This document shows, piece by piece, positions 55,648-62,049 of a stretch of 64,000 nucleotides of DNA (positions are counted from its first letter, which is position 1; every line of letters starts with the position of its first letter). The stretch lies in contig JBHHWG010000001.1 in assembly GCA_046756385.1 (NCBI GenBank), positions 7,272 through 71,271 of the forward strand, read 5' to 3'. Source of the DNA: Sphingomonadales bacterium (GTDB taxonomy: Bacteria; Pseudomonadota; Alphaproteobacteria; CAZZKF01). A program made the position numbers and the translations under genes. Under the pieces are notes generated by a model that saw only the letters and a list, made by a program, of their open reading frames with translations, searched no databases and was not told the origin of the DNA.

Positions 55648-56769
55648 TCACAAAAACAAGGGTTGATGGTCGAGCCCGGTGGTCTCGGGCAGTCCGAGAA
55701 TCAGGTTCATGTTCTGGATCGCCTGCCCGGCCGCGCCTTTGACCAGATTGTCGATCACCGAGACAATGACCGCGGTTCCATCGCGTCGGCCCGCAAAGAC
55801 ATTGATGAGGCATCGGTTGGCGCCCCTGACCTGCCGGGTATCCGGCACCACACCCTCGGGCAACAACTGAACAAAAGGTTCGTCGCGATAGCTATCGTCG
55901 AGCGCGTCGCGCAGCTGCGCCATTGTGGCGCCTTCGGTCAGCTGGACATAAATCGTTTCAAGAATGCCACGGTTCATGGGCACGAGATGAGGTGTGAAAC
56001 TTACGGCGACCTCAGCGCCCGCGGCAGCCGTCAGTTCCTGCTCGATCTCTGGCGTGTGGCGATGTCCCTGAAGGCCATAAGCGCGTATGCCCTCGCTCAC
56101 CTCGGCAAACAGGTTGGCTTCCCTGGCCGCCCTTCCCGCCCCGCTGACACCGGACTTGGCGTCGATAACGATATTTTGCGGCGCCACGAGGTCAGCGGCC
56201 AGCAGCGGAATAAGAGGAAGCAGCGCGGTGGTCGGGTAACAACCCGGATTGGCGACCAGGCTGGCTTCGGCGATGGCTTCCCTGTTGATTTCACTTAGTC
56301 CGTACACCGCGATATTTTGCAGTTCCGGCGCACGATGATCTTCACCATACCACTGCTTGTAGACCGCTGGATCACCTAGCCTGAAATCCGCCGACAGATC
56401 GATCACCTTGACCGGCCTGGCGATGCTGGCAATGAGATCCTCGGTGGTTTCAACGATCATCTCGTCGACAAAGCTGTGGCCGGACGCGTGGAACAGGCCA
56501 CGCACGATTGTTTGAGTGGTGGCATGGGGCAGCGCGCAGAACACTACATCGACATCGAGTCCCGCCCATTCGACCTCATCAAGAGCCATCAGTTGCGGCA
56601 GGTCGTCCGAACCGAGGCCTGGAAACACCGCGCCCAGGGGCTTGCCGGCCTGGCGTTCCGCCGTTAACAGGACAATATCCGCCGCCGGGTGATGGCTCAG
56701 CAGCCGCACAAGTTCCCCGCCGGCATAGCCGCTTGCGCCGAGGATTGCGATTCTCGTTTTATCCATCAT
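55648..56769 (-). CDS. argC: N-acetyl-gamma-glutamyl-phosphate reductase
   Basis: 373 aa with the IAILGASGYAGGEL Rossmann motif and a catalytic Cys region. Confidence 0.9.
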   Translation of the reverse strand: MMDKTRIAILGASGYAGGELVRLLSHHPAADIVLLTAERQAGKPLGAVFPGLGSDDLPQLMALDEVEWAGLDVDVVFCALPHATTQTIVRGLFHASGHSFVDEMIVETTEDLIASIARPVKVIDLSADFRLGDPAVYKQWYGEDHRAPELQNIAVYGLSEINREAIAEASLVANPGCYPTTALLPLIPLLAADLVAPQNIVIDAKSGVSGAGRAAREANLFAEVSEGIRAYGLQGHRHTPEIEQELTAAAGAEVAVSFTPHLVPMNRGILETIYVQLTEGATMAQLRDALDDSYRDEPFVQLLPEGVVPDTRQVRGANRCLINVFAGRRDGTAVIVSVIDNLVKGAAGQAIQNMNLILGLPETTGLDHQPLFL

Positions 56770-56985
56770 GCTATCTGGCCAATTTTCCTAAACTCGTATC
56801 ATTAAAACAAAAATTAGTGCTCTTAAAAAGATCGATGCCCTAAATTCGCTAATAATTCGATCAGCTTTTCGGTATTGTATAACCGCATGCGCCGAGGCTT
56901 CTCAAGGCGTCTTCCCACAGGAAAGCAGCGGTCGATTACGGAAAATGGCTTCCGCCAAAGCGATTCGAGACAGGAGGTTTCACCA

Positions 56986-58146
56986 ATGAGCATGATCAGG
57001 GACCCAAGGCTGGCCGCCGCGCTGACCGATGAGGAATTGGCGTGGCTGAAGTTCATTTGCCCGGTGACGGAGCATTATGGACGCGCGGTCCGGGCGCTTG
57101 ATTTGCAAGGCCTGACGCTAGCCTGTTGGCAACACGTATTGCCCGACACGGTTCTGTCTTTAATGCCCTTTGTGGAGGCCGGTGCGCGGGTGCGCCTTGG
57201 CGCCTGCAGTCCGGACAGCACCGATGACCGGGTTGCGGCCTGGCTGGCCAAAAACGGTGTCGAGGTGTTTGCCAAGAGCGGCATGACCGATGCCGAATAT
57301 CGCGCCAACCTGGCGGAAATGGCATCCGGTCCGGTGGATATTATTTGCGACATGGGCGGCGAATTGATCGAAGCGATCGCCAACGAGGGTCACACGGTTT
57401 TGGGCGCGCTGGAGGCAACCACCACCGGAGTTCACCGCATCAAGGATCGCGCCCTGCCGTTCCCGACCTTTAACTGGAACGACATCGTGCTCAAGGATGC
57501 GCTCCATAATCGCTACCATGTCGGCGATACCGTGTGGCCGGTGTTTTCCGCCCTCACCAACATGTCGCTTTATGGCCGATCGATCCTGATCATCGGCTTT
57601 GGCCCGGTCGGGCGTGGCATGGCCGAGCGCGCGCGGGCGATCGGCGGAGTCGTGTCGGTGGTGGAGCGCGACCCGGTGCGCCGTCTGGAGGCCCAGCATT
57701 TCGGATGCCGACCGGTCACGTTGGAGGACGGTCTGGCAAGCAACAGCATCATCGTCACTGCCACCGGGATACCAGGCATACTGACCGGCGAAAAGCTGTC
57801 GCTCGTTCGTGACGGGGCAATTCTGGTTAATGTCGGCCACGGTAACCGCGAGATCGATGTCAACTGGCTTGAGCGGCACCCGAAGACCGTCATGAAACGC
57901 CATGTCGAGCGGTTCGATATTTCCGGCAAGAGACTTTATCTGCTTAACCGGGGCAGCCTGCTCAATCTGGCGGCGGGCTCGGGCCGCTACGGCTCCGACT
58001 GCTTCGATCCCTACAACGCGGTGATGCTGAGCGGCCTGAGCTGGATCGGACAAGGCGGCGCGGCGAGCCATGAGCCGGGCTTCCATCCCTTCCCAAGGGA
58101 ACTGGAACTGGAAATCGCCGAGTTGACCGCGCAAAGCCGGGGGTGA
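56986..58146 (+). CDS. adenosylhomocysteinase-like (SAHH-fold) NAD-binding protein with non-canonical active site
   Basis: ATG at 56986 follows AGGAGG with an 8-nt spacing; 386 aa. Aligns to SAHH across both the substrate and NAD domains (TTTGVHR, GFGPVGRG, VERDP, NVGH). The human-numbering catalytic residues D131, E156, K186, D190 and H353 read M, A, A, H and R. The C-terminal NAD-capping tail is absent. Confidence 0.7.
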   Translation: MSMIRDPRLAAALTDEELAWLKFICPVTEHYGRAVRALDLQGLTLACWQHVLPDTVLSLMPFVEAGARVRLGACSPDSTDDRVAAWLAKNGVEVFAKSGMTDAEYRANLAEMASGPVDIICDMGGELIEAIANEGHTVLGALEATTTGVHRIKDRALPFPTFNWNDIVLKDALHNRYHVGDTVWPVFSALTNMSLYGRSILIIGFGPVGRGMAERARAIGGVVSVVERDPVRRLEAQHFGCRPVTLEDGLASNSIIVTATGIPGILTGEKLSLVRDGAILVNVGHGNREIDVNWLERHPKTVMKRHVERFDISGKRLYLLNRGSLLNLAAGSGRYGSDCFDPYNAVMLSGLSWIGQGGAASHEPGFHPFPRELELEIAELTAQSRG

Positions 58147-58184
58147 CCGCCCCCTCGTCCCGTATCACGCTTCAATATTTACAC

Positions 58185-58204
58185 CGTACGCTTCACGTAC
58201 TACA
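58185..58204 (+). promoter_or_regulatory. putative higBA promoter/operator
   Basis: Palindrome GTACGcttcaCGTAC (overlapping an ACGCTTCA direct repeat) abuts a TACAAT -10 element about 10 nt before higB. Confidence 0.35.
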
Positions 58205-58212
58205 ATGCTGCG

Positions 58213-58506
58213 ATGATTGTAAGTTTTGCGGACACTGACACCCGTACGCTCTATGAAAGCGCGGTGTGTCATAGGCGCTGGAAGTCATTTAAAAAGGTGG
58301 CGCTTCGCAAGCTGGATATGATCGATTATGCCGCCGACCTTCGTGATTTAAGATCGCCGCCTGGTAACCGGCTTGAAAACTCAAGGGGGACCGCAGGAGG
58401 CAATACAGCATCCGCATTAACGACCAGTGGCGGAGATGTTTTACATGGAAAGATGGCAACGCTCACGATGTCGAAATTACGGATTATCATGACTGGGGAT
58501 ACCTAA
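58213..58506 (+). pseudogene. higB: higB (RelE/ParE-superfamily toxin) disrupted by a frameshift
   Basis: The N-terminal 55 aa (MIVSFADTD...VALRKLDMIDYAADLRDLRSPPGNRLE) match HigB. The conserved C-terminal half (KLKGDRRRQYSIRINDQWRRCFTWKDGNAHDVEITDYH) is encoded in the -1 frame, starting at an A4 run near 58376-58379. Confidence 0.65.
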
Positions 58507-58508
58507 CC

Positions 58509-58787
58509 ATGCTTCGTCTACAAACCCACCCGGGAGAAATTCTCCGAGAGGAATATTTGCTCCCTCTGGGCCTGTCCGCCAATGTGCTCGCCGGCGAGCT
58601 TGGCGTGCCCGCAAACCGTATAAGTCTTCTTGTGCGGGAAAAGCGTTCAATAACCGCCGACACGGCTCTGCGGCTTGCTAAGCGATTTAAAACAACGCCC
58701 GAATTTTGGATGAATGCACAGTCCAACTATGACCTTTCGGCGACCCGCATGAAGGCGACAGAGGAACAAAAATTGGCGTATGCCTAA
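58509..58787 (+). CDS. higA: HigA antitoxin (XRE-family HTH)
   Basis: 92 aa beginning MLRLQTHPGEILREEYL, with an HTH (LSANVLAGELGVPANRISLLV). Confidence 0.8.
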   Translation: MLRLQTHPGEILREEYLLPLGLSANVLAGELGVPANRISLLVREKRSITADTALRLAKRFKTTPEFWMNAQSNYDLSATRMKATEEQKLAYA

Positions 58788-58904
58788 TTGGGTATCAGTC
58801 ACGCGCCAGGGCCGCAACATGTACGGGCGCATGCCGATTCGGGTGTTCAAGGCATGCCTCCCGGACCGGAAATCACCACAGAAAAACACCAAGGGGGACA
58901 GCAT

Positions 58905-58940
58905 GAAAAAGGCCGCCCCACAAGGGAACGGCCTTTCCTG
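58905..58940 (-). terminator. intrinsic terminator after rpsI (minus strand)
   Basis: AAAGGCCG/CGGCCTTT stem with an inner CCC/GGG pair, followed by TTTTTCAT on the minus strand. Confidence 0.5.
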
Positions 58941-58965
58941 AGATCGTCGCCTTTTGAAGCGCGAA

Positions 58966-59451
58966 TTACCGCTTCGAGAACTGGAAGCTACGCCGCGCCT
59001 TGCGTCTGCCGTATTTCTTACGCTCGACCACACGGGCGTCGCGGGTCAGGAAGCCGCCCGATTTCAGGGCTGGCCGCAGCCCCGGTTCGAACAGGCTCAG
59101 CGCCTTGCTGATGCCGTGGCGGACCGCGCCGGCTTGCCCCGACAGACCGCCGCCCTTGACCGTGCACCAAACGTCGTAATGGTCCTTGCGGCCGGTCACG
59201 TCGAACGGCTGGGCGATAATCATGCGCAGCACCGGGCGGGCGAAATAGGTATCCTGGTCGCGGCCGTTGACCACGACTTTGCCGTTTCCGGGCTTGATCC
59301 ACACCCGGGCAACCGCGTTTTTACGTTTGCCGGTAGCGTATGAGCGCCCCTGGGCGTCAATTTTCGGCTCCACAACCTCGGGCGTCTCGGCCTCCGCGAC
59401 GGTACCCGCGAGATCCTTGAGATCCTTAAGCGTTTGGGTCTCTTCGGCCAT
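58966..59451 (-). CDS. rpsI: 30S ribosomal protein S9
   Basis: 161 aa with the C-terminal [18 protein letters not shown]. Confidence 0.95.
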
Positions 59452-59453
59452 GG

Positions 59454-59918
59454 TCAGGCACTCCTCTTATTCTTGGGGTTCAACGCCGCGACATCGAGCA
59501 CCTCGGGCTGCTGAGGCCCATGAGGATGATCGGAAGTGGCGTAAACGCGCAGATTGCTGAACTGCTGACGGCCCAGCGGCCCGCGCGGGATCATCCGCTG
59601 CACGGCCTTGAGCACCACACGCTCGGGATGCTTGCCGTCGAGAATTTGGCCGGCGGTTGCCTGGCGAATGCCACCCGGATAGCCGGTGTGGCGGTAGTAA
59701 ACCTTGTCGGACCGTTTGCGGCCGGTGAGGCGCACCTTGTCGGCGTTGATCACAATGACATTATCGCCGCAGTCGATGTGCGGCGTGTAGGTTGGCTTGT
59801 GCTTGCCGCGCAACAGATTGGCGACGATGGCGGCGAGCCGCCCCAGCACCAGGCCGTCGGCGTCGATCAGCAGCCATTTTTTCTCCACGTCGGAGGGTTT
59901 GGCCGAATAAGTCTTCAT
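59454..59918 (-). CDS. rplM: 50S ribosomal protein L13
   Basis: Start at [20 protein letters not shown]; about 154 aa. Confidence 0.95.
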
Positions 59919-60059
59919 CATTTGCTCCATGATCGGGCATCGCGCGGCCGTACAACGGGTGCCGACAGCCCTTCGAAGGCGCGGATTATGTCACAGAAAA
60001 TTTCAGTGTCAATCGTAAATCGCCGAAAATACGATGCATTTTCAGGCGCTTATTATAAC

Positions 60060-60154: not shown

Positions 60155-60526
60155 TTAAACGGGTTGAAGGGCCTCAGTCTGGTCCCCCCGAACGCCGCGC
60201 CGGCGCTTCTTGCGGATATGCACCCGCAGTTGCCTGAGCGCCGCCTGGAACGAATCGCGGATCGCCACATAAACATCTTCATGAGCGTGATTTTGATTCT
60301 CGCTCTTATTGACGACGATTTCACCGCCGTCGACCAACGGGAGATAGATATGGGCCTCGAATAGCCGACCCTTGTGCTGACTGCGATGGGGTTCGCAGAT
60401 CACCACCCGGCAATTGGTGATCCAATCACTGTAGCGGTCGAAGCGGCTTACTTCGTCTTTGATGCGGGATTCTACGGCGGGGGAAGGAGGAAAATCTTGA
60501 AACACTAGCTGAAAGGCTACGGCCAT
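60155..60526 (-). CDS. hpf: ribosome hibernation promoting factor / RaiA family protein (short form)
   Basis: 123 aa aligning to E. coli HPF/YfiA (FDRYSDWITNCRVVI, VDGGEIVV, EDVYVAIRDSFQAALRQL), with a basic C-terminal tail. Confidence 0.6.
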   Translation of the reverse strand: MAVAFQLVFQDFPPSPAVESRIKDEVSRFDRYSDWITNCRVVICEPHRSQHKGRLFEAHIYLPLVDGGEIVVNKSENQNHAHEDVYVAIRDSFQAALRQLRVHIRKKRRRGVRGDQTEALQPV

Positions 60527-60664: not shown

Positions 60665-61003
60665 CTACTTTGGGGTATTGCTGGCCCCGGTTTCGCTACC
60701 GAGCCACTCCAGATAATCCGGATTGCCGGCCACGATCGGCCAGGCGACGATGCACGGGCAGCTATAGCTGTGGAGCTCGCGAACCCGCTCTATCACCTGG
60801 TCGACAAGTTCGGCGCGGGTCTTGACCAGCACGGCGACTTCCCGGTCCTCGCAAAGCGCGCCTTCCCACCGATATATGGAGGTCATTGGACTCAGGATAT
60901 TGACGCAGGCCGCCAGATTGCTGGCCACGAGGTTTTTGGCGATGCGCGTGGCTTCGTCGGTCTCGTGGCTTACGGTTATGTACACCGAGCTGAAACCGGT
61001 CAT
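60665..61003 (-). CDS. cutA: divalent-cation tolerance protein CutA
   Basis: 112 aa from an internal ATG after a GGAGAGG RBS (LAACVNI, SIYRWEG, ELHSYSCPCIVA). ATGA overlap with the ctaA stop. The longer 183-aa ORF 5' part overlaps ctaA and is non-coding for cutA. Confidence 0.85.
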   Translation of the reverse strand: MTGFSSVYITVSHETDEATRIAKNLVASNLAACVNILSPMTSIYRWEGALCEDREVAVLVKTRAELVDQVIERVRELHSYSCPCIVAWPIVAGNPDYLEWLGSETGASNTPK

Positions 61004-62049
61004 GGGTTGCCCTCTCCTTTCAAATGGAAAACGGTGAACAACGCCGCCGTGAACACCAGCAAAGCGCCGCCCTGATGGGCCAGGCCGAGCGCCACCGGTA
61101 CAGCGTTTACAAGCGTAATCACCCCTAACGCCGCCTGTCCCAACGCCAGCAGTGCCACCAGCCCCGGCCCAGGTCCGGCTGACCGCGGCTTTGACCCTCG
61201 GCGCGCCCGCCACCAAAGCGCCACCGCAAGGATGACCGTCAGATAGCCAAGCATCCGGTGCATGAACTGCACGGCGAGGATATTCTCAAATATACCGGTT
61301 CCCGGCGGAGCGCCATCCAGCAGGCCGGTCGGAATCAGGGCGCCGTCGATCAGCGGCCATGTGTTGTAGGCGTGCCCGGCATTGAGCCCCGCGACCAGCC
61401 CGCCCGACAAAATCTGTAGAAACACCGCGCTTGCGACAAGCCAGGCATGGCCCCTGAGATATTCCGTTCCGCGCGGTTTGAGATTGACCAAAAGGCCCAA
61501 CGCGACCCAGAAGATATAGCCAAGGATAGCGACCGCCAGACCGAGATGGGCGGTCAATCGATAGGGGCTGACGTCGGGCCGGTCGACCAGGCCGCTTTTG
61601 ACCATGAACCAGCCCAGCCCGCCCTGGACCGCGCCCAGAATGAACATCAGCGCCAGCTTCGGCCGCAGCGCGGGCGAAATTCGTTTGGTCACCGTGAAAA
61701 TCAGGAACGGGATCAGGAATGCCAGACCGATCAGCCGCCCCAACATGCGGTGCGCATATTCAACCAGATAAATCGCCTTGAAGGCCGCTACGTCCATCCA
61801 GCTATTGAGTTTCTGAAATTCCGGGAATTGCTGATAACGGGCGAATTCGGCTTGCCACGCTTCGGCGTCAAGCGGCGGCAAGAGCCCGGTCACCGGCCGC
61901 CAGTCGGTCATCGACAGCCCGGATTCTCTTAGCCGCGTATAGCCGCCCAGCAGCACCATGGCGAAAATCAGACCACACAGGAACAACAGCCAGATCGCGA
62001 CCGGCCGGCTGGCTGAAGGGTCGTTTTTTCCGTCTCGTTTTTCCAGCAC
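61000..62049 (-). CDS. ctaA: heme A synthase (COX15/CtaA family)
   Basis: 349 aa; 8 TM helices with conserved His pairs in the type-2 CtaA pattern. Confidence 0.8.
   Translation of the reverse strand: MLEKRDGKNDPSASRPVAIWLLFLCGLIFAMVLLGGYTRLRESGLSMTDWRPVTGLLPPLDAEAWQAEFARYQQFPEFQKLNSWMDVAAFKAIYLVEYAHRMLGRLIGLAFLIPFLIFTVTKRISPALRPKLALMFILGAVQGGLGWFMVKSGLVDRPDVSPYRLTAHLGLAVAILGYIFWVALGLLVNLKPRGTEYLRGHAWLVASAVFLQILSGGLVAGLNAGHAYNTWPLIDGALIPTGLLDGAPPGTGIFENILAVQFMHRMLGYLTVILAVALWWRARRGSKPRSAGPGPGLVALLALGQAALGVITLVNAVPVALGLAHQGGALLVFTAALFTVFHLKGEGNP

What the first reader, a model, noticed from the sequence alone, without database searches (positions are those of the whole stretch)
56770..58146. 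Adenosylhomocysteinase-fold paralog with a rewritten active site, in an islet between argC and rpsI
The 386-aa protein aligns with S-adenosyl-L-homocysteine hydrolase over both domains. The NAD-binding determinants are intact: TTTGVHR, GFGPVGRG, the acidic residue in VERDP, and the NVGH His301 equivalent.

Five residues that SAHH needs for catalysis are changed, in human numbering: D131 reads Met (ICDMGGE), E156 reads Ala (ALEATTTG), K186 reads Ala, D190 reads His (LKDALHN) and H353 reads Arg. The C-terminal tail that caps NAD of the partner subunit is missing.

This is therefore not a functional SAHH. It is either a pseudoenzyme or a neofunctionalised NAD(P)-dependent enzyme. It follows a 216-bp AT-rich divergent promoter region and precedes a decaying higBA module. 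The whole unit sits between the core genes argC and rpsI, which suggests a small acquired islet.
Basis: partly seen in the sequence, partly recalled or inferred. Interest (0 to 1): 0.7.

Follow-up and report, generated by a model that had tools for sequence, protein, structure and literature searches.

The report
SAH-hydrolase-like enzyme with rewritten active site
This gene encodes an intact, evolutionarily constrained relative of S-adenosylhomocysteine hydrolase that keeps the NAD-binding and alcohol-oxidising parts of the active site but has lost the residues that hold and cleave SAH, so it belongs to a large, uncharacterised enzyme clade that databases mislabel as adenosylhomocysteinase.

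Summary
The ORF is real: window 56986-58146 (+), 386 aa, with GGAGG 8 nt upstream. It has the SAHH fold (AF2 pLDDT 93; TM 0.93 to archaeal SAHH/SIHH). It scores below every NCBIfam ahcY cutoff.

The fifth is wrong. Lys186, the catalytic base, is retained as K170 and is invariant in 120/120 homologs; the Ala sits at position 188.

His55, His301, Asn181, Asn191, Thr157 and all NAD ligands are also kept. The nucleobase fingerprint (HxTxE or HxExK) reads HxLxD, and the GHF gate reads GHG.

The protein belongs to a monophyletic, tail-less clade with at least 23 clusters at 50% identity (Alphaproteobacteria, Actinobacteria, Chloroflexi; marine, sediment, soil). Orthologs give a median dN/dS of 0.09. 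About 25 independent loci share no neighbour gene, and no riboswitch, viral copy or publication was found.

Best reading: an active NAD-dependent enzyme acting on a substrate other than SAH. It is neither a decaying gene nor an ordinary ahcY, and the substrate is unknown.

The 2.2-kb block (this gene, a frameshifted higB, and higA) interrupts an rpsI-argC junction that is contiguous in the closest relative. Only higBA is compositionally foreign.

The parts
56986..58146 (+). SAHH-like CDS, 386 aa plus stop. It belongs to an uncharacterised tail-less clade of the SAHH superfamily.
56770..56985 (.). 216-bp divergent intergenic region between argC (-) and the SAHH-like gene (+). GC is 0.444. The RBS GGAGG lies at 56973-56977.
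   Evidence: No Rfam family matched and no sigma-70 consensus site was called here.
57133..57147 (+). H50-V-L52-P-D54, the position of the nucleobase fingerprint motif. SAHH has HxTxE/Q and SIHH has HxExK. Here it is HxLxD. His55 is kept.
   Evidence: motif definition from PMC10978960
57349..57354 (+). D122-M123, equivalent to human D130-D131. The C4'-H base and 5'-OH ligand Asp131 is replaced by Met (119/120 in the family).
   Evidence: role of the Asp from PMC13406329
57412..57438 (+). E143-A144-T145-T146-T147-G-V-H-R. The 2'-OH ligand Glu156 is replaced by Ala (120/120). The Thr157-159 contacts to NAD and the 3'-OH are kept.
57478..57513 (+). N165...K170...H174-N175-R176. Asn181, the catalytic Lys186 and Asn191 are retained and invariant. 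Asp190 is replaced by His (101/120; Glu in 19).
57595..57666 (+). The GFGPVGRG dinucleotide-binding loop and E227, the acidic ligand of the NAD adenosine ribose (E or D in 120/120).
57829..57843 (+). N282-V-G-H285-G286. His301 is kept. The Phe of the GHF 'molecular gate' is replaced by Gly (Ser in 100/120 of the family).
   Evidence: gate definition from PMC13406329
58178..58206 (+). Sigma-70-like promoter (TTTACA-17-TACAAT) immediately upstream of higB.
   Evidence: This is a consensus match only.
58213..58508 (+). higB pseudogene. The reading frame shifts at the A-run near 58375-58380. No in-frame stop precedes higA after frame correction.
   Evidence: PF05015 scores 31.4 bits as it stands and 70.6 bits over the full model after frame correction. 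The sequence is identical in two further assemblies.
58509..58787 (+). higA antitoxin, intact, 92 aa.
   Evidence: TIGR02607, 102 bits against a cutoff of 47.7
55648..56769 (-). argC (N-acetyl-gamma-glutamyl-phosphate reductase), the left flank of the inserted block.
58966..59451 (-). rpsI (ribosomal protein S9), the right flank. A hairpin followed by a T-run after its stop (about 58905-58940) aligns with the same element in relative L098.

Best explanation
The gene encodes a functional, NAD-binding enzyme. It belongs to a large uncharacterised clade of the SAHH superfamily, here called 'clade I'. Members are about 385 aa, lack the C-terminal tail, and carry Met/Leu/Ile at position 131, Ala/Gly at 156 and His/Glu at 190.

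The most likely mechanism is inferred, not shown. NAD+ accepts a hydride from a secondary alcohol of the substrate. Lys170 (=Lys186) acts as general base, tuned by Asn165 and Asn175 (=Asn181 and Asn191), with Thr145 (=Thr157) holding the hydroxyl. This is the first half-reaction of SAHH.

The protein cannot carry out the SAHH reaction on SAH or SIH. It lacks the C4'-H base Asp131, both carboxylates that grip the ribose 2'-OH, the purine-recognition motif and the His-Phe gate.

The retained His50/His285 pair and the new His174 remain available as acid/base groups. The chemistry after oxidation could therefore be plain dehydrogenation, with NAD exchangeable because the tail clamp is missing. It could also be a redox-neutral reaction through a keto intermediate.

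The substrate is unknown and is probably not adenosine or SAH. The gene is expressed on its own, not as part of a conserved operon.
For: SAHH fold and NAD site (shown):
- Pfam PF00670 6.6e-28 and PF05221 1.4e-14.
- AF2 pLDDT 93.1; Foldseek TM 0.91-0.93 to 7r39/7r37/7r3a.
- GxGxxG, E227, T145-147 and N327 are invariant.

Oxidation machinery kept (shown): K186, N191, H55, H301, T157 and E155 are 120/120, and N181 is 118/120. The same holds in 21-23 of 23 clade-I representatives.

SAH-specific residues lost in a conserved way (shown):
- M131 in 119/120, A156 in 120/120, H190 in 101 and E190 in 19.
- HxLxD replaces HxTxE/HxExK (PMC10978960).
- GH[S/G] replaces GHF (PMC13406329).
- ahcY equivalog models score below cutoff.
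- Alanine mutants of the equivalent Asp129 and Asp188 abolish activity in the SAHH-family enzyme AgmF (PMC8599513).

Functional constraint (shown):
- 50 invariant columns among 60 sequences at about 55% identity.
- Median dN/dS 0.09, maximum 0.33, over 364 ortholog pairs.
- The ORF is intact in three assemblies.

Distinct lineage (shown): a monophyletic clade of 23 clusters at 50% identity in an NJ tree, all with the altered signature.

The mechanism itself is inferred from residue roles described in PMC13406329.
Against: - There is no experimental datum and no ligand model. I could not read the model's coordinates, so 'lines the pocket' rests on homology to SAHH positions.
- Genome context gives no substrate clue. 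About 25 dereplicated loci share no neighbour family except generic ABC ATPases.
- Loss of three active-site carboxylates is also what a pseudoenzyme would show.
- Two loci have a PNP_UDP_1 nucleoside phosphorylase gene as the immediate same-strand neighbour (L066, L082). A nucleoside-type substrate is therefore not excluded.
Confidence: 0.6

Rival explanations
1. Pseudoenzyme. The protein is a catalytically dead SAHH-fold protein that only binds NAD(H) or a nucleoside and acts as a sensor, regulator or scaffold, as AHCYL1/IRBIT does in animals.
For: Three active-site carboxylates (D131, E156, D190) and the purine-recognition elements are gone. No metabolic operon partner was found. The NAD site is intact.
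Against: - The residues needed for hydride transfer and acid/base chemistry (K186, N181, N191, T157, H55, H301) are invariant across sequences that are only about 50-60% identical. A pure binding protein has no need for them.
- The replacement residues are themselves conserved (M131 119/120, A156 120/120, H/E190). This indicates a re-specified site, not a relaxed one.
- The protein has no extra regulatory domain.
- Sister members are fused to a metal-cupin domain, which is typical of enzymes.
Confidence: 0.15
2. A divergent but genuine SAH or SIH hydrolase (ordinary ahcY function) of the short, archaeal type.
For: - Public annotation calls it 'adenosylhomocysteinase'.
- The best PDB and NCBIfam hits are SAHH/SIHH.
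- Archaeal enzymes also lack the K426/Y430 tail and are active (PMC10978960).
- Two loci have PNP-family neighbours.
Against: - It scores below all ahcY equivalog cutoffs.
- Asp131, Glu156 and Asp190 are absent. All 54 canonical representatives keep D131 and D190 by the definition used, and also K186.
- The equivalent Asp-to-Ala mutants kill AgmF.
- The fingerprint motif and the GHF gate are not met.
- The clade is separate from SAHH/SIHH in the tree.
Confidence: 0.05
3. A nucleoside-directed enzyme that uses the 3'-keto intermediate differently. One example is His174 abstracting the C2' proton so that the C1' substituent is eliminated, a GH4-like redox-assisted cleavage of the glycosidic bond. 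Another is an enzyme acting on a 2'-deoxy or 5'-hydrophobic nucleoside.
For: - The 3'-OH ligands Thr157 and Lys186 and the 5'-side histidines are kept, while the 2'-OH ligands are replaced by Ala and His.
- SAHHs already release free base as a side reaction (PMC10978960).
- PNP_UDP_1 genes are immediate same-strand neighbours in 2 of about 25 independent loci.
Against: - The purine-binding motif, the 353 loop and Met358 of the hydrophobic cage are not conserved.
- The PNP neighbours are not conserved even within their own ortholog groups.
- L066 is a mixed accessory region.
- No nucleoside transporter or kinase recurs near the gene.
Confidence: 0.15
4. A decaying remnant carried on a degenerating mobile islet, like the neighbouring higB.
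For: The adjacent higB is frameshifted. The block interrupts the rpsI-argC junction.
Against: - The ORF is full length with a strong RBS, and every one of the 50 family-invariant residues is present.
- GC3 is host-like.
- The family is under strong purifying selection.
Confidence: 0.03

Closest known systems
S-adenosyl-L-homocysteine hydrolase / S-inosyl-L-homocysteine hydrolase, short archaeal type (PDB 7r39, 7r37, 7r3a; TIGR00936, NF004005)
   Same: - Same two-Rossmann-domain fold (TM 0.91-0.93, about 30% identity).
- Same NAD-binding residues.
- Same Lys186/Asn181/Asn191/Thr157 oxidation set and the His55/His301 pair.
- No 40-residue insertion and no K426/Y430 clamp, as in the archaeal enzymes.
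   Different: - D131 is Met, E156 is Ala and D190 is His.
- The nucleobase motif is HxLxD, not HxTxE/Q or HxExK.
- GHF reads GHG.
- The 353 loop is variable.
- The C-terminus is about 20 residues shorter than even P. furiosus SAHH.
- Family-specific invariants are W180, R192, H194, V195 and R248.
- Scores are below the equivalog cutoffs.
AgmF, the NAD+-dependent psicofuranine (angustmycin C) dehydratase of the SAHH family (PMC8599513)
   Same: It is an SAHH homolog annotated as SAH hydrolase that does not accept SAH and uses bound NAD+ for a different reaction. It is a precedent for neofunctionalisation of this fold.
   Different: - AgmF keeps all the SAHH catalytic residues (H56, D129, K184, D188, H299; each is essential). 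It still binds an adenine nucleoside and sits in a biosynthetic cluster.
- The window protein lacks the D129 and D188 equivalents and has no cluster.
AHCYL1/AHCYL2 (IRBIT), the eukaryotic SAHH-like pseudoenzymes (PDB 3mtg, 3gvp)
   Same: SAHH fold with NAD binding but without SAH hydrolase activity.
   Different: - They are eukaryotic and carry an N-terminal regulatory extension.
- They are less similar to the query (E = 1e-35 against 1e-53 for archaeal enzymes; TM 0.72).
- The window protein has no extension and keeps the catalytic Lys and His set.
D-isomer-specific 2-hydroxyacid dehydrogenases (PF02826)
   Same: Related NAD-binding domain (43.5 bits, residues 186-287). These are two-domain enzymes with a cleft active site that oxidise a secondary alcohol.
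   Different: Only the NAD domain matches. The substrate domain and the overall topology are those of SAHH. The His/Glu/Arg catalytic triad of that family was not identified here.

Membership tests
Adenosylhomocysteinase (ahcY; EC 3.13.2.1) | Two-domain SAHH fold (PF05221 plus PF00670) | tested here: met
   (both Pfam families are above cutoff, although PF05221 matches only residues 39-133). (TM 0.93).
Adenosylhomocysteinase (ahcY; EC 3.13.2.1) | Score at or above the curated NCBIfam equivalog cutoff | tested here: not met
   NF004005 scores 232.7 against 275, TIGR00936 scores 225.1 against 497.6, and the other models score 77-123 against 440-512.
Adenosylhomocysteinase (ahcY; EC 3.13.2.1) | General base Lys186 with Asn181 and Asn191, plus Thr157 at the 3'-OH | tested here: met
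K170, N165, N175 and T145.
Adenosylhomocysteinase (ahcY; EC 3.13.2.1) | Asp131, the C4'-H base and 5'-OH ligand | tested here: not met
   M123; Met in 119/120 family members.
Adenosylhomocysteinase (ahcY; EC 3.13.2.1) | Glu156 and Asp190, the bidentate ligands of the ribose 2'-OH | tested here: not met
   A144 (120/120) and H174 (His 101, Glu 19).
Adenosylhomocysteinase (ahcY; EC 3.13.2.1) | His55 and His301 | tested here: met
   H50 and H285, both 120/120.
Adenosylhomocysteinase (ahcY; EC 3.13.2.1) | Nucleobase fingerprint HxTxE/Q (SAH) or HxExK (SIH) | tested here: not met
   H50-V-L-P-D54. In the family, Leu occupies position 57 in 101/120 and Asp occupies position 59 in 100/120. Motif from PMC10978960.
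Adenosylhomocysteinase (ahcY; EC 3.13.2.1) | The GHF His-Phe molecular gate | tested here: not met
   GHG in the query; Ser 100, Gly 10 and Thr 7 of 120 in the family. Motif from PMC13406329.
Adenosylhomocysteinase (ahcY; EC 3.13.2.1) | NAD binding: GxGxxG, acidic residue 243, Asn346, Thr157-159 | tested here: met
   Binding itself was not measured.
Adenosylhomocysteinase (ahcY; EC 3.13.2.1) | C-terminal tail with Lys426 and Tyr430 clamping the NAD of the partner subunit | tested here: not met
   The protein ends at about human position 403. This feature is not decisive, because active archaeal enzymes lack it too (PMC10978960).
Adenosylhomocysteinase (ahcY; EC 3.13.2.1) | Reversible hydrolysis of SAH | not testable with these tools
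   An enzyme assay is needed.
AgmF-type NAD+-dependent nucleoside dehydratase | All SAHH catalytic residues conserved (H56, D129, K184, D188, H299), and location in an agm-type cluster | tested here: not met
   The D129 and D188 equivalents are Met and His. No cluster is present. Definition from PMC8599513.
AHCYL/IRBIT pseudoenzymes | Eukaryotic protein with an N-terminal IRBIT extension on an SAHH-like domain | tested here: not met
   The 386-aa protein aligns from residue 2 with SAHH models and has no extension. It is bacterial.
D-2-hydroxyacid dehydrogenase (PF02826/PF00389) | Catalytic-domain match and the His/Glu/Arg triad | tested here: inconclusive
   Only the NAD domain matches (PF02826, 43.5 bits, profile positions 25-130 of 178). 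There is no catalytic-domain hit. The triad was not mapped.
HigBA type II toxin-antitoxin (neighbouring module) | Intact HigB (PF05015) followed by HigA (TIGR02607) | tested here: not met
   HigA is intact (102 bits against 47.7). HigB matches the full model only after a frame correction.

The most novel reading that the evidence does not exclude
Clade I of the SAHH superfamily has at least 23 clusters at 50% identity and is widespread in marine, sediment and soil Alphaproteobacteria, Actinobacteria and Chloroflexi. Under this reading it catalyses a reaction not yet described for this fold, on a non-adenosyl substrate. It would use the retained NAD/Lys186 oxidation step with a new acid/base set (His190, His55, His301) in place of Asp131, Glu156 and Asp190. 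All its members are currently mis-annotated as adenosylhomocysteinase.
Probability: 0.45. Interest if true: 0.6.

Novelty: new variant of a known kind. Interest (0 to 1): 0.5.

Why it matters
SAHH is one of the most conserved enzymes known and is usually treated as single-function. AgmF and the SIH hydrolases are the only characterised departures I found, and both keep the catalytic residues.

This clade is large and under purifying selection. It keeps the redox half of the machinery but replaces the elimination and ribose-binding half. That makes it a clear target for enzyme discovery.

It also exposes a systematic annotation error. Genomes in which this is the only 'ahcY' hit would be wrongly credited with a complete methyl cycle.

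The signature (Met131, Ala156, Lys186, His/Glu190, Trp180, no tail) gives a simple rule for separating these proteins from true SAHH.

Tried and rejected
- **Genome context.** I collected 96 loci: 3+6+6 from genomes and assemblies and 80 from metagenomes. After all-against-all BLAST of flanking ORFs and dereplication into 25-27 groups, only generic ABC ATPases recur. The nearest neighbours are mostly divergent, convergent or distant. There is no operon partner.
- **Riboswitch or leader RNA.** Nothing was found upstream in the window at E <= 1. Nothing relevant was found in eight homologous loci.
- **Viral origin.** No relative exists in IMG/VR.
- **Defence function.** There is no PADLOC hit.
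- **Cupin fusion in sister members P0130 and P0162.** It is a generic metal cupin. The DMSP-lyase hit (24 bits) is below cutoff and gives no specific lead.
- **PNP_UDP_1 neighbours.** They occur only in L066 and L082 and not in other loci. L066 is a mixed accessory region.
- **Target-site duplication or tRNA at the islet borders.** None was found. The 22-nt repeat 56725-56746 / 56879-56900 does not extend. The nearest tRNAs are 6 kb away.
- **Exact look-up of RpsI.** It is not on record.
- **Foldseek against AFDB.** The library was unavailable.
- **Literature.** Seven full-text searches found no description of this clade.
- **Canonical ahcY.** There is no second SAHH homolog in the window or in any fetched locus. 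The rest of the genome could not be examined.
Full report
**1. The gene**

The 423-codon TTG ORF listed at 56875-58146 contains an ATG at 56986. A GGAGG lies 8 nt upstream of it.

Pfam finds AdoHcyase_NAD (6.6e-28) and AdoHcyase (1.4e-14, residues 39-133 only). NCBIfam ahcY equivalog models align end to end, but all score below their cutoffs: 232.7 against 275, 225.1 against 497.6, and lower for the rest.

The best solved relatives are archaeal SAHH/SIHH, with 7r3a at E = 1e-52. An AlphaFold2 model built on 60 homologs has mean pLDDT 93.1 and pTM 0.88. It superposes on 7r39, 7r37 and 7r3a with TM 0.91-0.93 at about 30% identity. No solved structure is closer.

**2. The active-site positions**

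I aligned 120 homologs with human AHCY.

| Human position | Query | Family (n = 120) |
|---|---|---|
| H55 | H50 | H 120 |
| D130 | D122 | D 120 |
| D131 | M123 | M 119 |
| E155 | E143 | E 120 |
| E156 | A144 | A 120 |
| T157 | T145 | T 120 |
| N181 | N165 | N 118 |
| K186 | K170 | K 120 |
| K188 | A172 | variable |
| D190 | H174 | H 101, E 19 |
| N191 | N175 | N 120 |
| E243 | E227 | E 94, D 26 |
| H301 | H285 | H 120 |
| N346 | N327 | N 120 |
| H353 | R334 | variable |

The H353 position lies in a loop with pLDDT below 50.

The stretch NWNDIVLKDALHN aligns without gaps to NVNDSVTKSKFDN, both in HMMER alignments to three PDB chains and in MAFFT.

The residue roles come from the 2026 SAHH review (PMC13406329):
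- The Lys deprotonates the 3'-OH and is tuned by the two Asn.
- The Asp equivalent to D131 abstracts H4' and binds the 5'-OH.
- The Glu and Asp equivalent to E156 and D190 bind the 2'-OH.
- The His equivalent to H55 protonates the leaving sulfur.

Two further SAHH hallmarks fail:
- The nucleobase fingerprint is HxTxE/Q for SAH and HxExK for SIH (PMC10978960). Here it is HxLxD.
- The GHF gate is GHG here and GHS in most of the family.

The protein ends near human position 403. The missing K426/Y430 clamp is shared with active archaeal enzymes, which simply bind NAD more weakly. The missing tail is therefore not evidence of inactivity.

**3. A conserved family, not a one-off**

The word-indexed search returned more than 120 clusters at 90% identity, with 50-62% identity to the query and lengths of about 385 aa. 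Named sources include Thalassospira, Devosia, Bauldia, Tabrizicola, Nocardioides, Ilumatobacteraceae, Hoeflea, Lacibacterium, Inquilinaceae and Anaerolineae.

An exhaustive phmmer search of 1.84 billion representatives gave 134 hits at E <= 1e-30. I scored 113 near-full-length representatives for the catalytic signature and built an NJ tree.

The query falls in a monophyletic group of 23 representatives, each standing for a cluster at 50% identity. All of them have a hydrophobic residue at 131, a small residue at 156, Lys186 and His or Glu at 190. Nearly all have W180, V195, H55 and H301.

Two other altered groups also exist beside the canonical SAHH/SIHH sequences: 'HTL..T..I..K..E' with 10 representatives, and 'HEK..N..E..K..E' with 8.

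Sixty family members share 50 invariant columns. Nei-Gojobori dN/dS over 364 ortholog pairs of 80-97% amino-acid identity has a median of 0.09 and a maximum of 0.33. The pairs are not independent, but the signal is unambiguous. The family is maintained by selection, and the replacement residues are part of what is maintained.

**4. What it most likely does**

- Shown: the fold, an intact NAD site with an acidic residue that favours NAD over NADP, and retention of the Lys/Asn/Asn/Thr set that carries out the oxidation half-reaction.
- Also shown: retention of the two histidines, and conserved loss of the groups that bind the ribose diol, abstract H4', recognise the purine and gate the homocysteine channel.
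- Inferred: the protein still oxidises a secondary alcohol next to nicotinamide C4, but on a substrate other than SAH, SIH or adenosine.

Without the tail clamp, NAD may be exchangeable, which would give a true dehydrogenase. Alternatively, His174, His50 and His285 could process a keto intermediate in a redox-neutral cycle.

AgmF shows that this fold can be re-used, but it keeps every catalytic residue. This clade is a more radical departure.

I could not read the model's coordinates. Statements about which family-specific residues line the pocket rest on positional homology only.

**5. Searches for a substrate clue that led nowhere**

- About 25 independent loci share no neighbour, and the gene is usually monocistronic.
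- No Rfam element lies upstream.
- There are no viral copies and no defence-family match.
- Two sister-subclade proteins carry a C-terminal generic metal cupin.
- Two loci have a PNP_UDP_1 phosphorylase gene as the immediate same-strand neighbour. This is a weak pointer that a nucleoside-like substrate is not excluded. It is not conserved, and one of the two loci is a mixed accessory region.
- Seven literature searches found no description of the clade.

**6. The surroundings**

argC (55648-56769, -) and rpsI/rplM (58966-59930, -) flank a 2196-bp block on the opposite strand. The block contains the 216-bp, GC 0.444 intergenic region, the SAHH-like gene, higB and higA.

higB is a pseudogene:
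- As it stands, it matches only positions 2-59 of PF05015 (31.4 bits).
- Shifting frame at the A-run near 58375-58380 restores a match to positions 2-91 of 91 (70.6 bits). No stop then precedes higA.
- The same sequence occurs in two further assemblies of the organism, so an assembly error is unlikely.

higA is intact (TIGR02607, 102 bits).

The closest relative with a long contig has 66% ArgC identity. It carries rplM-rpsI-(96 bp)-argC-hexapeptide contiguously, and the terminator-like hairpin after rpsI is alignable between the two. An insertion in the window lineage is therefore the simplest reading.

Emcibacter and Kordiimonas keep only argC-hexapeptide, with other genes upstream. This junction is generally fluid.

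Composition separates the block into two parts. The SAHH-like gene has GC 0.618 and GC3 0.752, like argC, rpsI, hom and glpX. higB and higA have GC 0.50-0.53 and GC3 0.51-0.55. No other locus pairs the two. The higBA module is therefore a separate, more recent arrival. The SAHH-like gene is either older or came from a donor of similar composition.

The organism itself is isolated: the best non-self ArgC hit is 75% identical. The 62% best hit for the SAHH-like protein therefore says little about transfer.

**7. Verdict**

The interpretation 'not an SAH hydrolase' stands. 'Neofunctionalised enzyme' is favoured over 'pseudoenzyme'.

This is a new variant of a known kind. It is a well-populated, uncharacterised and mis-annotated clade of the SAHH superfamily. 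The substrate remains unknown.

Noticed in passing
window 58213-58508: higB is frameshifted at an A-run near 58375-58380, and after frame correction it has no stop before higA. The same lesion is present in two independent Logan assemblies (L096, L097). higA (58509-58787) is intact, so this is an orphan-antitoxin situation.
   Followed up: yes
window 58147-58965 compared with 56986-58146: higBA has GC 0.50-0.53 and GC3 about 0.51-0.55. The adjacent SAHH-like gene has host-like GC3 of 0.75. The 'islet' is therefore composite and does not represent a single acquisition.
   Followed up: yes
proteins P0145, P0151, P0176, P0190, P0195, P0197, P0230, P0237, P0247 and P0147, P0150, P0161, P0175, P0182, P0209, P0222, P0256: Two further groups of short SAHH-like proteins have different altered signatures: T131/I156/E190 with motif HxTxL, and N131/E156/E190 with motif HxExK. 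Both appear uncharacterised.
   Followed up: partly
proteins P0130, P0162, P0243, P0251, P0164, P0128, P0129, P0166: Domain fusions occur in the SAHH superfamily: clade-I SAHH-like plus C-terminal Cupin_2, EamA transporter plus SAHH NAD domain, SAHH plus a PLP-dependent (PALP) domain, SAHH plus SnoaL-like, and roughly 800-aa tandem double-SAHH proteins.
   Followed up: partly
L066 4539-5180 and L082 1709-2410: PNP_UDP_1 (nucleoside phosphorylase superfamily) genes lie immediately next to the SAHH-like gene on the same strand in two unrelated metagenomic loci. They are not conserved in other loci.
   Followed up: partly
window 56725-56746 and 56879-56900: A 22-nt direct repeat (19/22 identical) has one copy inside the argC start region and the other in the intergenic region. 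It does not extend on alignment and is probably chance.
   Followed up: yes
window 55648-56769 (argC): The MAG is labelled Sphingomonadales, but its ArgC is closest to Emcibacter and Kordiimonas (62-66%). The best non-self hit is only 75%, so the organism has no close sequenced relative.
   Followed up: partly
L013 11490-14674: In one homologous locus, a SIR2_2-domain gene and neighbours that look like a defence system lie downstream of polA, about 3 kb from the SAHH-like gene. This is probably unrelated.
   Followed up: no
L002 9612-9992 and L014 6604-6984: In Devosia-type loci, a DUF2200 gene ends 9-17 bp before the SAHH-like start and is preceded by a LysE-family exporter gene. This is a possible lineage-specific operon.
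   Followed up: no
window 60155-60526, 60665-61216, 61000-62049: Downstream of rplM lie a ribosome-hibernation-factor-like gene (S30AE), cutA and ctaA (COX15). The listed cutA ORF overlaps ctaA by about 200 bp, so the true cutA start is probably further in. The CutA1 domain begins at residue 78.
   Followed up: no
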